Below the pieces are notes generated by a model. The model was not told the origin of the DNA and made no database searches. It was given only the letters and a program-made list of their open reading frames with translations. The position numbers and the translations under genes are program-made. This document shows, piece after piece, positions 16,749 to 58,842 of a DNA stretch of 64,000 nucleotides; position 1 is the first letter of the stretch, and each line of letters starts with the position of its first letter. The stretch is taken from assembly GCF_024298765.1 (NCBI RefSeq), contig NZ_CP101210.1. One strand, 5' to 3'. The stretch comes from Escherichia coli (GTDB taxonomy: Bacteria > Pseudomonadota > Gammaproteobacteria > Enterobacterales > Enterobacteriaceae).

Positions 16749-16850
16749 TGCCGGATGCGGCGTGAACGCTTTACCCGACCTACAAAATCTTGCAAAATCA
16801 ATAAATTGCAGGAACGATGTAGGCCTGATAAGCGTAGCGCATCAGGCAAC
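16749..16850. repeat. REP-type palindromic repeats
   Basis: gccggatgcggcgtgaacgc...taggcctgataagcgtagcgcatcaggc, the GCCGGATGCGGCG / GCCTGATAAGCG family seen elsewhere in the window. Confidence 0.6.
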
Positions 16851-54885: not shown

Positions 54886-56127
54886 TTATTTCACCGCTTC
54901 ATTCAATACGCGATCAAACTTATCCATTGGGCAAAAACCGTTGGCATCTATCGGGCAACCGCTTAATTCCAGCGTCACGCGCTGCGCAGGTGCCTGCAGG
55001 GTTAACGCATCGGCATTACGTAACTGTTCCGCACTCTGGTACACATATTCAATTTTCATCAAATCGCGATTGGCTTTGCTGTCATGCCAACGCTGGAAAA
55101 CGATTTTGCCGCCAATCGGCGTGCGTTCGTTCTGGTCATGCAACTGATACGGTTTGAAATCCAGCGCCGTTAACAGAGAGGCAATGTTGGAGTCGTGCCC
55201 AACTAATACCGTGATTTTCGGTGCACTGGTGCGATCGGTGACCAGGGCTTTGTCGATATAACTGACCAGCGGTTTCGCAACATTGCGCGCCACTTCCGGT
55301 GAGGTAAACAGGCTGTCCTGGTAACCGTTTTTCAGCTTCGACAACACCTTCCACTGCTGGTCAGATTTGATTTCTCCCCAGGCCACCTGATCCATCGGAA
55401 AACCTTCGTAGTATTGCAAAGTAAACGCATCTACCAGCGAGTTGCCGACTTTCAGCGGCCCGGAAACGCCCGGTTCTTGTTGATACTTCGCGCTAAAGGT
55501 ATTTTTGCCATCTACAAGCGAACATTGTTGCTTCTCTTTACACGCAGGAGAATCTTTATAGTTAACGATTTGTTCCAGTAGCTTGTAGCTGTCGGTAAGC
55601 TGGAGTTTGCTGAGCTCTTTCTCCATTGCCGCCACCGCCTGTTCACTGAATGCGGCGGAATCATCGGTGATCACTGGGTTAAAGGTGGGGTCCATAGTGC
55701 CCATTTTTTCCTGGTGATGAACAGGAATATCACACCCAGGGAATGCGCCAGTAATAAAGAACTGCGCGGTCGCGACGGTGCGTTGCAGACTATTGGCATA
55801 GGCATAAACGGTGTCCGGTGGCGGGCATTCCCCTGATTTCACCATCCCCTGTTCTGCCAGCCATTCACGCATATAATGGCCCATATACACTTCGAGCACG
55901 CCCCCTTTAGTGGTGAGCTGCCCACCGGGGACGTCCCATTCAGGCCATTTATTCGGCGTCGACTGCTCCAGCACACTGCCATTGTTCGCCAGCGGCGCAC
56001 GTAAGTTATGACGGCTCATCATAAGGACTTGCTGTAGCTGATAGCCTTCCGGTACGGTTTGTGCCTGAGCATTTGAAGCGAGTAAAACTATCCCTGCCAC
56101 AGTTGCGGCGATTAGCGTTTTGTTCAT
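54886..56127 (-). CDS. agp: Periplasmic glucose-1-phosphatase (histidine acid phosphatase)
   Basis: 413 aa [46 protein letters not shown]... with RHNLRAP active-site motif. Confidence 0.95.
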
Positions 56128-56661
56128 TCCTCATACCTCTTTTGTTATCAATAATTAAAGAGTGTGACAGAAATATGTCATTTTTCCGGGAACAGGTTCG
56201 CAAAATGGCTCGTTGAACGCCTGTTTTTCTATATTCCCCTTTAAAAACAGGCAAGTTTTGACGCAAACTATGCCTGATTAGCCCCGGCCTCGTTTACGCC
56301 GCTAATGATTACATCAGTAGCTATAAAGAAAATCAGCGGCGTTACCATTACCAATAAAAAAAGAATGTGAGACTAATAGAAATGGTTTTTAGCACATGTC
56401 TTTATCATTAAATTGCATAACGATTTAAATAGTCGAGTTGTGCATTCCTTTCCTTATTGTTTAACTTGTAAGCATGAGCCATAAGTTCAGGAGGGAGGTA
56501 AATAAAATATGTTCCTCCCACCTTGAGGCGACCTCCTCTCCGCGATGATTTCAATAACATATTCTGTGTTGGCATATGAAATTTTGAGGATTACCCTACA
56601 CTTATAGGAGTTACCTTACAGGGGTTCCTTCAATTTGAGTTGATTTACGCGAGATAACGCT

Positions 56662-57582
56662 ATGGAATTAAAGGATTATTACGCCATCATGGGCGTGAAA
56701 CCGACGGACGATCTCAAGACAATCAAGACCGCCTATCGTCGACTGGCCCGCAAATACCATCCTGATGTCAGCAAAGAACCGGATGCCGAAGCCCGCTTCA
56801 AAGAGGTCGCTGAAGCCTGGGAAGTGTTAAGTGATGAACAACGTCGCGCTGAGTATGATCAGATGTGGCAACATCGCAACGATCCGCAATTTAGCCGTCA
56901 GTTCCAGCATGGCGACGGTCAGAGTTTTAACGCCGAAGATTTTGACGATATCTTCTCGTCAATTTTCGGTCAGCATGCCCGCCAGAGCCGTCAACGCCCC
57001 GCCACACGCGGCCACGATATTGAAATCGAAGTGGCGGTTTTCCTCGAAGAAACGCTTACTGAGCATAAGCGTACCATCAGCTATAACCTGCCGGTTTATA
57101 ACGCCTTTGGCATGATCGAACAGGAAATCCCGAAAACGCTGAATGTGAAGATCCCGGCGGGCGTCGGCAATGGTCAACGCATCCGCCTGAAAGGCCAGGG
57201 GACGCCGGGCGAAAACGGCGGTCCAAATGGCGACCTGTGGCTGGTGATTCACATTGCGCCACATCCGCTGTTTGATATTGTCGGCCAGGATCTGGAAATA
57301 GTGGTGCCGGTTAGCCCGTGGGAAGCGGCGCTGGGTACTAAAGTCACCGTTCCAACACTGAAAGAAAGCATTTTGCTGACTATCCCGCCTGGCAGCCAGG
57401 CCGGGCAACGATTGCGCGTTAAAGGCAAAGGTCTGGTGAGCAAAAAACAGACCGGCGATCTGTATGCGGTACTGAAAATCGTGATGCCGCCGAAACCGGA
57501 TGAAAACACTGCCGCGCTGTGGCAGCAACTGGCAGACGCCCAGTCGTCTTTTGATCCACGTAAAGATTGGGGGAAAGCATAA
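56662..57582 (+). CDS. cbpA: Curved DNA-binding protein CbpA (DnaJ homolog)
   Basis: 306 aa [39 protein letters not shown]..., a J-domain with HPD. Confidence 0.95.
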
Positions 57583-57887
57583 TGGCTAATGTTACGGTGA
57601 CTTTTACTATTACCGAATTTTGCCTGCATACCGGCATCTCTGAAGAGGAGTTGAATGAAATTGTCGGTTTGGGGGTGGTTGAACCGAGTGAGATCCAGGA
57701 GACAACCTGGGTATTTGACGACCATGCCGCCATTGTGGTGCAACGCGCGGTACGCCTGCGTCATGAACTGGCTCTGGACTGGCCGGGGATCGCGGTGGCG
57801 CTGACGTTAATGGATGATATTGCGCACCTGAAGCAGGAAAACCGCCTGCTGCGCCAGCGGCTTTCCCGGTTTGTGGCTCACCCGTGA
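57582..57887 (+). CDS. cbpM: Chaperone modulator CbpM
   Basis: ORF 57567..57887; ATG at 57582 gives [35 protein letters not shown]...; overlaps the cbpA stop by 1 nt; 101 aa. Confidence 0.9.
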
Positions 57888-57894
57888 GTTTGTT

Positions 57895-58240
57895 GCCTGA
57901 TGCGACGCTTAACGCGTCTTATCAGGCCCACAAAAAGCACTGTTCCCGTAGGCCGGATAAGGCGTTCATGCCGCATCCGGCAACTGCGCCATAATGCCTG
58001 ATGCGACGCTTAACGCATCTTATCAGGCCCACAAAAAGCACTGTTCCCGTAGGCCGGATAAGGCGTTCTCGCCGCATCCGGCAACTGCGCCATAATGCCT
58101 GATGCGACGCTTAACGCATCTTATCAGGCCCACAAAAAGCACTGTTCCCGTAGGCCGGATAAGGCGTTCTCGCCGCATCCGGCAACTGCGCACTAATGCC
58201 TGATGCGACGCCTGCCGCGTCTTATCAGGCCTACAAACGG
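57895..58240. repeat. Tandem BIME/REP cluster (about 3.4 units of ~100 bp)
   Basis: tgcctgatgcgacgcttaacgc(g/a)tcttatcaggcccacaaaaagcactgttcccgtaggccggataaggcgtt...gccgcatccggcaactgcgccataa repeated head to tail from 57895, 57995, 58096 and 58197. Confidence 0.85.
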
Positions 58241-58242
58241 CA

Positions 58243-58842
58243 TTATCTTTTTTGGTAGTCACACTCCACTAACACCAGCAATAACTGGCTTAGTGCCGCG
58301 TAAAAACCAAAGCTGTCATACTGTCGACAACGCGCAGCAAACTCTGGTAACCATTCCCGCAGAGCCGTCAGTGTTTTTTGCCGCAAACCGTCGATTCTTC
58401 GCGCAGGAACGGTCCCCTCTCCCAGCGAAAAATGCAGATGACTCAACAAATCGAGATAGATCGCCAGATGATCTGCCGGTTCGTTGAAATTGCCGCTGGT
58501 TTCCATCCCCGCCTCAACTAACAAGCGTTTAATCTCTTGCTCGTCCTGTTTGTAGGCCGATGCATACGGCAGCGCCGCTTGTTTGTCGGTCATCAGAAAC
58601 AGGCCGCAAAAGTCAGCGGCCAGTTCCAGACGGGCATCGTCACGTACTGTCAGAGTGGCAATACTGTTTTCCAGCCCATTCACCGCCGCAGTGAGCGGAG
58701 GTTCGCTTTTCAGCAACGAAAACCATTCAGCCATCTGCGCACTGGCGATTTGCGTCAGTTGTTCATCGTCCAGTTCACGGGAGAACAACTGCGCCAGCCA
58801 GGCGTAAACACAGGCAATCTGTTGTGCTGTCAGCGTGGTCAT
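58243..58842 (-). CDS. torD: TMAO reductase chaperone TorD
   Basis: ORF 58243..58875 (-); start [29 protein letters not shown]...; 199 aa; start overlaps the torA stop. Confidence 0.92.

What the first reader, a model, noticed from the sequence alone, without database searches (positions are those of the whole stretch)
57895..58240. Head-to-tail BIME array between cbpM and torD
About 3.4 near-identical ~100 bp units of REP-type palindromes. Such arrays are copy-number variable and can affect transcript stability; the repeats are contiguous with no unique spacers, so this is not CRISPR.
Basis: seen in the sequence. Interest (0 to 1): 0.2.

Follow-up and report, generated by a model that had tools for sequence, protein, structure and literature searches.

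The report
Ordinary E. coli BIME-2 repeat array
The repeat is real, but it is a textbook E. coli BIME-2 element: seven small hairpin-forming palindromes between the ends of two converging operons, with a copy number that differs between strains. It is ordinary.

Summary
Window 57894-58237 holds 3.4 head-to-tail copies of a 101-bp unit (95% match). It fills the gap between the stop codons of cbpM (+) and torD (-) in an E. coli chromosome.

- **Anatomy.** Each unit is one Z2 and one Y palindromic unit (REP) in opposite orientation, joined by 16-nt and 14-nt linkers. There are seven palindromes in all.
- **Family.** The palindromes match those of K-12 REP325, the published Y/Z2 model array. They give three Rfam naRNA4 hits above the gathering score. 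This is the definition of a BIME-2.
- **Copy number.** Across 5,426 complete E. coli genomes, 455 carry 3.4 units, about 640 carry 2.4, and the rest carry 1.4 units or degenerate 2-3 palindrome versions. None carries more than 3.4. Marker bases are shuffled between alleles, so the array has expanded, contracted and been converted repeatedly.
- **IS1397.** Two genomes carry IS1397 inside a Z2 loop of this array.
- **Excluded readings.** There are no unique spacers, no intrinsic terminator and no credible ORF.
- **Likely role (inferred).** It is a two-sided 3'UTR hairpin block that stabilises mRNA and attenuates read-through, and possibly a translational brake, because a palindrome starts 7-8 nt after each stop codon.

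Interest is low and the element is already known.

The parts
57582..57887 (+). cbpM CDS (last gene of cbpAM); stop TGA at 57885-57887, 7 nt before the first palindrome
   Evidence: ORF list; annotated as cbpM in 100%-identical genomes
57894..58237 (.). Whole BIME-2 array: 3.4 tandem copies of a 101-bp Z2-linker-Y-linker unit
   Evidence: TRF; the repeat finder
57895..57931 (+). Palindromic unit 1, Z2 type; foot tetranucleotide CCAC instead of CTAC
   Evidence: Motif parse and fold, -21.3 (+) / -20.4 (-) kcal/mol
57932..57947 (.). Tail-to-tail linker AAAAAGCACTGTTCCC (16 nt); repeated at 58033-58048 and 58134-58149
57948..57981 (-). Palindromic unit 2, Y type (GTAG foot on + strand)
   Evidence: aligns to REP325 Y
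57982..57995 (.). Head-to-head linker AACTGCGCCATAAT (14 nt); repeated at 58083-58096 and, with 2 changes, at 58184-58197
57996..58032 (+). Palindromic unit 3, Z2 type (CCAC foot; a G>A change in the stem weakens the + strand hairpin to -15.5 kcal/mol)
58049..58082 (-). Palindromic unit 4, Y type
58097..58133 (+). Palindromic unit 5, Z2 type (CCAC foot)
58150..58183 (-). Palindromic unit 6, Y type
58198..58234 (+). Palindromic unit 7, Z2 type with canonical CTAC foot and a different loop (CCTGCC); this loop is the IS1397 insertion point in strain PAR
57951..58029 (+). Rfam naRNA4 (RF02564) match 1 (Y-linker-Z2 pair), 75.2 bits against gathering score 59.5
58052..58130 (+). Rfam naRNA4 match 2, 76.5 bits
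58153..58231 (+). Rfam naRNA4 match 3, 81 bits
58243..58842 (-). torD CDS (last gene of torCAD); stop codon at 58243-58245, 8 nt from the foot of the last palindrome
   Evidence: ORF list; annotated torD is 600 nt in identical or related genomes

Best explanation
This is a BIME-2-type REP cluster of Escherichia coli. Seven ~35-nt imperfect palindromes alternate between Z2 type (forward) and Y type (reverse), joined by a 16-nt tail-to-tail linker and a 14-nt head-to-head linker. The composite 101-bp unit has been amplified locally to 3.4 copies.

Shown here:
- the identity of the palindromes;
- the alternating geometry;
- the extragenic position, exactly filling the 355-bp gap between the convergent cbpAM and torCAD operons;
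- the strain-to-strain copy-number polymorphism (1.4, 2.4 or 3.4 units, never more in 5,426 genomes), with marker bases shuffled between units. This implies repeated unequal recombination, slippage or gene conversion, or RAYT/TnpA-REP-mediated addition and loss of units;
- use of its Z2 loops as IS1397 targets.

Inferred from published work on REPs, not tested here:
- The gap contains no intrinsic terminator, so both operons should transcribe into the array.
- On either RNA strand each unit folds into a -15 to -21 kcal/mol hairpin. These hairpins would block 3'->5' exonucleases, stabilising the upstream message, and would attenuate read-through (partly Rho-dependent) into the opposing gene. 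The array would thus act as a two-sided 3'UTR element.
- A palindrome starts 7 nt after the cbpM stop codon and 8-12 nt after the torD stop codon. Both lie inside the <=15-nt window in which REPs were reported to stall terminating ribosomes and lower translation of the last cistron.
- At the DNA level, BIME-2s are known gyrase binding and cleavage sites, which suits a region between convergent transcription units.
For: - Repeat.
- Anatomy and hairpin energies.
- Whole-array folding z-scores of -8.7 and -10.7.
- Y and Z2 stems are nearly identical to K-12 REP325 units, while the linkers differ, as expected for BIME-2.
- Three full-length naRNA4 matches above the gathering score.
- No IHF consensus in the array, so it is not BIME-1.
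- Gene context.
- Allele series of 92/151/153/152/254/355/356 bp with mosaic markers.
- Population counts.
- IS1397 inside Z2 loops of this locus in two genomes, with a TAAA duplication in one.
- No terminator-like site within 57888-58242.
- Literature: BIME-2 definition and copy-number variability (PMC3333891); REP325 as combined stabiliser and partly Rho-dependent terminator, and REPs between convergent genes correlating with higher expression of both genes (bioRxiv 10.64898/2026.03.23.713779); REPs within 15 nt of a stop codon stall ribosomes (PMC12306157, citing Liang et al. 2015).
Against: - None against the identity.
- For function, nothing was measured at this locus. The 2026 preprint stresses that REP effects depend on context and that terminal REPs are not generally associated with longer half-lives.
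- About 80% of E. coli genomes make do with 2-3 degenerate palindromes here, so extra units are clearly dispensable and may be neutral.
- Three of the four Z2 units carry CCAC instead of the canonical CTAC foot. According to PMC3333891, a mutated GTAG abolishes TnpA-REP binding and cleavage on that strand.
- The global MFE folds pair distant units with each other rather than forming seven local hairpins, so the in vivo RNA structure is uncertain.
Confidence: 0.93

Rival explanations
1. The array is a gene cluster for three naRNA4-like small RNAs that bind the nucleoid protein HU and bridge cruciform DNA to condense the chromosome, as proposed for REP325.
For: There are three full-length Rfam RF02564 matches above the gathering score on the + strand. 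The units are near-identical to REP325 in both hairpins. PMC4550694 reports HU binding and DNA condensation by naRNA4.
Against: - The Rfam model is in effect a model of a Y-linker-Z2 REP pair, so a match shows BIME-2 membership, not sRNA function.
- The follow-up study found that deleting or over-expressing REP325 did not change nucleoid volume, that REP-REP contacts were absent, and that no stable ternary complex formed (bioRxiv 10.64898/2026.03.23.713779).
- No promoter-like site was found in or next to the array.
- Most strains have degenerate units here.
Confidence: 0.05
2. The extra units are selectively neutral by-products of replication slippage or RAYT activity, with no effect on the neighbouring genes.
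For: Copy number varies freely from 1.4 to 3.4 within one flanking haplotype, and about 80% of genomes carry only degenerate palindromes. IS1397 insertions that split the array are tolerated.
Against: The outermost palindromes keep the same short distance to both stop codons in every allele examined. Published data show that REPs in 3'UTRs alter termination and decay. This rival concerns only the extra copies and is compatible with the best explanation for the element as a whole.
Confidence: 0.35
3. It is a degenerate or orphan CRISPR array.
For: Regularly spaced palindromic repeats.
Against: The sequences between the palindromes are themselves repeated (16-nt and 14-nt linkers identical or nearly identical in every unit). 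The palindromes alternate in orientation and type. The neighbours are cbpAM and torCAD, not cas genes. The units match REP325.
Confidence: 0
4. The array encodes a small protein (79-aa ORF at 58023-58262 on the - strand, or 51-aa ORF at 57922-58077 on the - strand).
For: Open reading frames exist.
Against: There is no Pfam match above threshold (best 16.5 bits against a cut-off of 27). Nothing was annotated under the match in any of the 54 rows listed by the two repeat-only searches. The ORF length would change with unit number, and the ORFs are simply read-through of repeated palindromes.
Confidence: 0.01
5. It is a bidirectional intrinsic (Rho-independent) terminator.
For: There are G+C-rich hairpins between convergent genes. 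About 40% of REPs between convergent genes lie within predicted bidirectional terminators (bioRxiv 10.64898/2026.03.23.713779).
Against: No hairpin in 57888-58242 is followed by a U-tract on either strand, and the terminator scan found no site in the gap. The nearest T-run on the + strand starts about 15 nt beyond the last stem, inside torD.
Confidence: 0.1

Closest known systems
BIME-2 family of E. coli REP/PU clusters (Gilson, Bachellier, Hofnung; summarised in PMC3333891)
   Same: Y and Z2 palindromic units in alternating orientation; short linkers; several tandem copies; strictly extragenic; tandem copies well conserved within a locus; number of copies variable between strains; target of IS1397.
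   Different: Nothing essential. Three internal Z2 units have CCAC instead of CTAC at the foot. The linker sequences are specific to this locus, which is typical of BIME-2.
REP325 / naRNA1-6 of E. coli K-12 (yjdM-yjdN intergenic; Rfam RF02564 naRNA4)
   Same: Same architecture and almost the same period (100 against 101 bp). The Y and Z2 stems are nearly identical. The Rfam naRNA4 model matches full length.
   Different: REP325 has 5.8 units (12 palindromes) and lies between tandem genes inside an operon. This array has 3.4 units (7 palindromes) and lies between convergent operons. The linkers differ (AACGGTGCCGAC / AAATTCCCGCACCCTCC against AACTGCGCCATAAT / AAAAAGCACTGTTCCC).
BIME-1 (RIP/RIB elements: Y + Z1 with the long L linker carrying an IHF site)
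   Same: A pair of inverted REPs in an intergenic region.
   Different: BIME-1 elements are single-copy and carry an IHF site. This array has Z2 units, 14-16-nt linkers, no IHF consensus and is tandemly amplified.
REPINs / RAYT-mobilised REP doublets (Pseudomonas; PMC3116915)
   Same: The unit is a pair of inverted REPs. Amplification is presumably linked to a single-copy domesticated Y1 transposase (TnpA-REP/RAYT).
   Different: REPINs are mostly dispersed doublets. Here the doublet is amplified in tandem at one site. No RAYT gene was looked for in the window.

Membership tests
BIME-2 | Built from Y-type and Z2-type palindromic units | tested here: met
   The units align to the Y and Z2 units of K-12 REP325, with invariant stems. 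There are three full-length naRNA4 (Y-l-Z2) matches of 75-81 bits against a gathering score of 59.5.
BIME-2 | Successive palindromes in alternating orientation (head-to-head, tail-to-tail) | tested here: met
   Z2(+), Y(-), Z2(+), Y(-), Z2(+), Y(-), Z2(+).
BIME-2 | Short linkers rather than the long L linker with an IHF site (which would make it BIME-1) | tested here: met
   The linkers are 16 and 14 nt. No WATCAANNNNTTR match lies within 57888-58242.
BIME-2 | Occurs as multiple tandem copies whose number varies between strains at a given locus | tested here: met
   3.4 copies here. Alleles of 1.4, 2.4 and 3.4 units occur on the same flanking haplotype. 455 genomes have 3.4 units, 1,092 have at least 2.4 and none has more than 3.4, out of 5,426.
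BIME-2 | Extragenic location | tested here: met
   The array lies wholly between the cbpM stop (57887) and the torD stop (58243).
BIME-2 | Conserved GTAG/CTAC tetranucleotide at the foot of each palindrome and a mismatch in the stem | tested here: inconclusive
   All three Y units have GTAG and the last Z2 has CTAC, but Z2 units 1, 3 and 5 have CCAC. The stem mismatch or bulge is present in all predicted hairpins. Other alleles have CTAC in the first Z2.
BIME-2 | Specific target of IS1397 (insertion into the loop of a palindromic unit) | tested here: met
   IS1397 sits in a Z2 loop of this locus in strain WP4-W18-ESBL-09, flanked by a TAAA duplication, and in the last Z2 loop of strain PAR.
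BIME-2 | Bound and cleaved by DNA gyrase; bound by Pol I; cleaved and recombined by TnpA-REP | not testable with these tools
   Biochemical properties reported in the literature (references in PMC3333891).
naRNA4 (Rfam RF02564) | Covariance-model score at or above the gathering threshold | tested here: met
   81, 76.5 and 75.2 bits against 59.5, model positions 1-77 of 77.
naRNA4 (Rfam RF02564) | Expressed as a discrete RNA that binds HU and condenses DNA | not testable with these tools
   There are no expression data. The nucleoid role itself was not reproduced in bioRxiv 10.64898/2026.03.23.713779.
CRISPR array | Identical direct repeats separated by unique spacers | tested here: not met
   The sequences between the palindromes are repeated with the unit, and the palindromes alternate in type and orientation.
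Intrinsic (Rho-independent) terminator | G+C-rich hairpin immediately followed by a U-tract | tested here: not met
   The scan found no terminator-like site within 57888-58242 on either strand.

The most novel reading that the evidence does not exclude
The number of 101-bp units may act as a heritable, reversible dial. Because the array is the shared 3'UTR of two convergent operons and starts within 15 nt of both stop codons, gaining or losing units would change mRNA protection, read-through into the opposing operon and ribosome stalling at the last cistron. That would shift the CbpM:CbpA ratio (CbpM inhibits the co-chaperone CbpA) and TorD supply for TMAO reductase maturation, without touching coding or promoter sequence.
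Probability: 0.1. Interest if true: 0.35.

Novelty: already known. Interest (0 to 1): 0.08.

Why it matters
It matters little beyond correct annotation. BIME-2 arrays have been described since the early 1990s, and their variable copy number is a published family property. The practical points are these:

- **Assembly and typing.** The locus is a 101-bp-period length polymorphism (92 to 356 bp) that short-read assemblies can collapse and that can serve as a typing marker.
- **Annotation.** Rfam scans will label it as three naRNA4 "sRNA genes", which should be read as "REP pair", not as evidence of a functional sRNA. ORF callers may also produce spurious small ORFs in it.
- **A natural test series.** The allele series (1.4, 2.4 and 3.4 units on one haplotype, IS1397-split versions and degenerate versions) offers ready material for testing the recent "REP as dual 3'UTR regulator" model between convergent genes.

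Tried and rejected
- **Synthetic 9.4-unit query with flanks, to rank genomes by array length.** This was uninformative. The tool joins several pieces that reuse the same subject DNA, so short arrays also "covered" the query. I replaced it with repeat-only queries filtered by E-value, which separate arrays by the length of a single contiguous match.
- **Inverted-repeat search with a 9-nt seed.** It reported no inverted pairs, because mismatches interrupt the REP stems. Motif parsing and folding showed the hairpins.
- **Liang, Rudd and Deutscher 2015.** I tried to read it by PubMed id and by PMC id. It is not held, so I cite its result through PMC12306157.
- **Two malformed literature queries.**
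- **CRISPR, small-protein, intrinsic-terminator and BIME-1 readings.** All were tested and rejected.
- **Assembly artefact.** Rejected because hundreds of independent complete genomes carry the same array.

Full report
**1. The observation**

Tandem Repeats Finder reports a single array at 57894-58237 with period 101, 3.4 copies, 95% matches, no indels and score 618. The gap-free repeat finder gives three in-register copies spaced 101 + 101 bp, at 98% and 92% identity to the first.

The array sits in a 355-bp gap between two ORFs that end facing each other. One is at 57582-57887 (+). The other has its stop codon at 58243-58245 (-). A 951-bp query around the array is 100% identical to all 30 complete E. 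coli chromosomes listed. In those chromosomes the two genes are annotated cbpM (chaperone modulator) and torD (TorA-specific chaperone). The window is therefore E. coli chromosome. Its closest relatives include several avian pathogenic (APEC) isolates, some of them O78.

**2. Anatomy**

Parsing the sequence gives seven imperfect palindromes:

| Unit | Type and strand | Coordinates |
|---|---|---|
| 1 | Z2 (+) | 57895-57931 |
| 2 | Y (-) | 57948-57981 |
| 3 | Z2 (+) | 57996-58032 |
| 4 | Y (-) | 58049-58082 |
| 5 | Z2 (+) | 58097-58133 |
| 6 | Y (-) | 58150-58183 |
| 7 | Z2 (+) | 58198-58234 |

- Tail-to-tail neighbours are joined by the 16-nt linker AAAAAGCACTGTTCCC. Head-to-head neighbours are joined by the 14-nt linker AACTGCGCCATAAT (the last copy has two changes).
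- The 101-bp composite units are head-to-tail, while the palindromes inside them alternate in orientation.
- Each palindrome folds on either strand into a bulged hairpin of -15.5 to -21.3 kcal/mol.
- The whole region folds far better than shuffled sequence, with z = -8.7 on the + strand and -10.7 on the - strand. The global minimum-energy folds pair distant units with one another, so the exact RNA structure in vivo is open.
- The three Y units carry the canonical GTAG foot. The last Z2 has CTAC, but Z2 units 1, 3 and 5 have CCAC.

**3. What family it belongs to**

The published definition (PMC3333891) has these elements:
- E. coli REPs are of type y, z1 or z2.
- Their linkers vary in length and sequence between loci, while tandem copies at one locus are well conserved.
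- The copy number at a locus differs between strains.

I fetched the model Y/Z2 array REP325 of K-12 (period 100, 5.8 copies) and aligned its units with those of the window. Both hairpins are almost invariant, and the linkers differ. This is what the definition predicts.

Rfam gives three full-length matches to naRNA4 (RF02564), the RNA named after the fourth Y-l-Z2 unit of REP325. The scores are 75-81 bits against a gathering score of 59.5. There is no IHF consensus in the array, and the linkers are too short for the BIME-1 L motif.

The alternative readings fail:
- There are no unique spacers, so it is not CRISPR.
- No hairpin is followed by a U-tract on either strand, so it is not an intrinsic terminator.
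- The 79-aa and 51-aa ORFs inside the array have no Pfam match above threshold. Nothing is annotated under the match in any of the 54 rows that the two repeat-only searches list.

**4. Copy number across strains**

A systematic sample of 60 records, taken at even steps through the ranking of 5,433 matching records, gives the distribution below.

| Span of the 951-bp query in the record | Rows |
|---|---|
| 951-952 bp | 5 |
| 850 bp | 7 |
| 747-749 bp | 26 |
| 688 bp | 20 |
| Partial match (35% of query) at an IS1397-disrupted locus | 1 |
| Unrelated plasmid hit | 1 |

Extracted intergenic regions:

| Intergenic length | Strains | Structure |
|---|---|---|
| 92 bp | IAI1, 789 | two palindromes |
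| 151-153 bp | K-12, O157 | three diverged palindromes |
| 152 bp | BH100 | 1.4 canonical units |
| 254 bp | AR_0089 | 2.4 units |
| 355-356 bp | window, ATCC 25922, 09-02E, FDAARGOS_536, SC477 | 3.4 units |

I then searched with a repeat-only query and E-value cut-offs that only one long contiguous match can pass:
- 455 of 5,426 genomes hold a contiguous match at E <= 1e-140. It spans 344 bp in 29 of the 30 rows listed, and 318 bp in the IS1397-interrupted strain PAR.
- 1,092 genomes hold at least 2.4 units.
- None holds a longer array (E <= 1e-195; one search is the positive control).

The window therefore carries the longest allele class, found in about 8% of complete genomes.

All seven expanded or canonical alleles that I fetched go with one CbpM protein variant (WP_000024569.1). 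The five short or degenerate alleles fetched from PGAP-annotated records go with another (WP_000024560.1). K-12 is annotated under a different accession series (NP_415519.1), so its variant was not compared.

Within the expanded haplotype, several marker bases occur in different combinations and orders between alleles of the same length:
- CTAC-AAAGAG against CCAC-AAAAAG;
- TTCATG, TTTATG or TTCTCG;
- CCATAA against CACTAA;
- GATGCG against GATACG;
- the loop of the last Z2.

For example, unit 1 of the window keeps unit-1 markers on both sides of a short tract that carries unit-2 markers. This indicates repeated unequal exchange, slippage or gene conversion rather than a single duplication. 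That is an inference from the pattern. RAYT (TnpA-REP)-mediated addition of units, as modelled in PMC3333891, is an alternative route that I cannot distinguish here.

**5. IS1397**

Two genomes carry IS1397, the insertion sequence known for inserting specifically into palindromic units of BIMEs (references in PMC3333891), in this very locus:
- In WP4-W18-ESBL-09 it sits in the loop of the Z2 unit, flanked by a TAAA duplication.
- In strain PAR it sits in the loop of the last Z2, in an array otherwise identical to the window's.

This independently confirms that the units behave as bona fide palindromic units.

**6. How it most likely works**

*Shown here*
- The array is the only structured element in the shared 3' region of the convergent cbpAM and torCAD operons.
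- There is no intrinsic terminator and no promoter-like site in or beside it.
- Hairpins can form on both RNA strands.
- The first palindrome starts 7 nt after the cbpM stop. The last one has its foot 8 nt, and its stem 12 nt, from the torD stop.
- This geometry is kept in all alleles examined, because expansions are internal.

*Inferred from the literature*
- REP325 both stabilises the upstream message and acts as a partly Rho-dependent attenuator. It yields a ladder of hairpin-ended transcripts.
- About 30% of convergent gene pairs in E. coli have a REP between them, and those pairs show higher expression of both genes (bioRxiv 10.64898/2026.03.23.713779).
[quoted passage not shown] 2015).
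- BIME-2s are in vivo gyrase cleavage sites (Espeli and Boccard 1997, cited in PMC3333891).

I therefore rate the array as a two-sided 3'UTR hairpin block, with a possible translational effect on CbpM and TorD and a probable gyrase site.

About 80% of genomes have only two or three degenerate palindromes here, so the extra units may well be neutral.

The naRNA4/HU nucleoid-condensation reading (PMC4550694) is not supported by the follow-up work. It needs expression data that I do not have.

**7. Verdict**

The element is a known kind of repeat (BIME-2) at a locus that carries REPs in all E. coli. The only strain-specific feature is the allele (3.4 units, the maximum seen). Interest is low and the novelty class is "already known".

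Noticed in passing
window 32683-33108: This is the second tandem repeat of the window: period 181, 2.4 copies, 98% match. It starts inside the 3' end of tRNA-Ser(GGA) at 32614-32701 and overlaps a borderline Rfam RtT match at 32746-32882 (46.3 against 45 bits). It resembles the tyrT/RtT arrangement, in which the units repeat the tRNA 3' end.
   Followed up: partly
L007 1499-3027 (strain WP4-W18-ESBL-09) and L011 from ~612 (strain PAR): IS1397 is inserted into the loop of a Z2 palindrome of this same cbpM-torD BIME in two unrelated genomes. One shows a TAAA target duplication. The other sits in an array identical to the window's.
   Followed up: yes
window 16750-16826: A Y-type REP core at 16750 is followed by an IHF consensus at 16796-16808 and an Rfam ES036/CssrF match at 16784-16826 (47.9 against 37.6 bits). 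This looks like a BIME-1/RIP-type element, a contrast to the BIME-2 studied here.
   Followed up: no
window 35719-35912 (+): There is a strong Rfam match to Ysr251 (Yersinia antisense sRNA family, 192.8 bits against 100). It lies antisense to the 3' end of a 307-aa ORF at 35714-36637 (-).
   Followed up: no
window 26923-27014 (+) and 3299-3348 (+): Rfam gathering-level matches to ES056 sRNA (119.7 bits) and to the PyrC leader (68.7 bits). Both are expected E. coli features.
   Followed up: no
window 56128-56661: Only about 535 bp separate the 413-aa ORF at 54886-56127 (-) from cbpA at 56662. I recognise that ORF as glucose-1-phosphatase Agp from my own knowledge. K-12 has yccE upstream of cbpA, and ATCC 25922 has a pseudogene fragment there. 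yccE therefore appears to be absent in this strain.
   Followed up: no
cbpM, window 57582-57887, and loci L002-L012: The seven canonical or expanded BIME alleles fetched (1.4-3.4 units) are linked to CbpM variant WP_000024569.1. The five degenerate two- or three-palindrome alleles fetched from PGAP-annotated records are linked to WP_000024560.1. This suggests two old haplotypes of the region, with amplification confined to one.
   Followed up: partly
E. coli genome search: Four of the 5,175+4 matching places for the repeat-only query lie on plasmids, so chromosomal BIME-2-like sequence occasionally sits on plasmids. I did not examine these.
   Followed up: no
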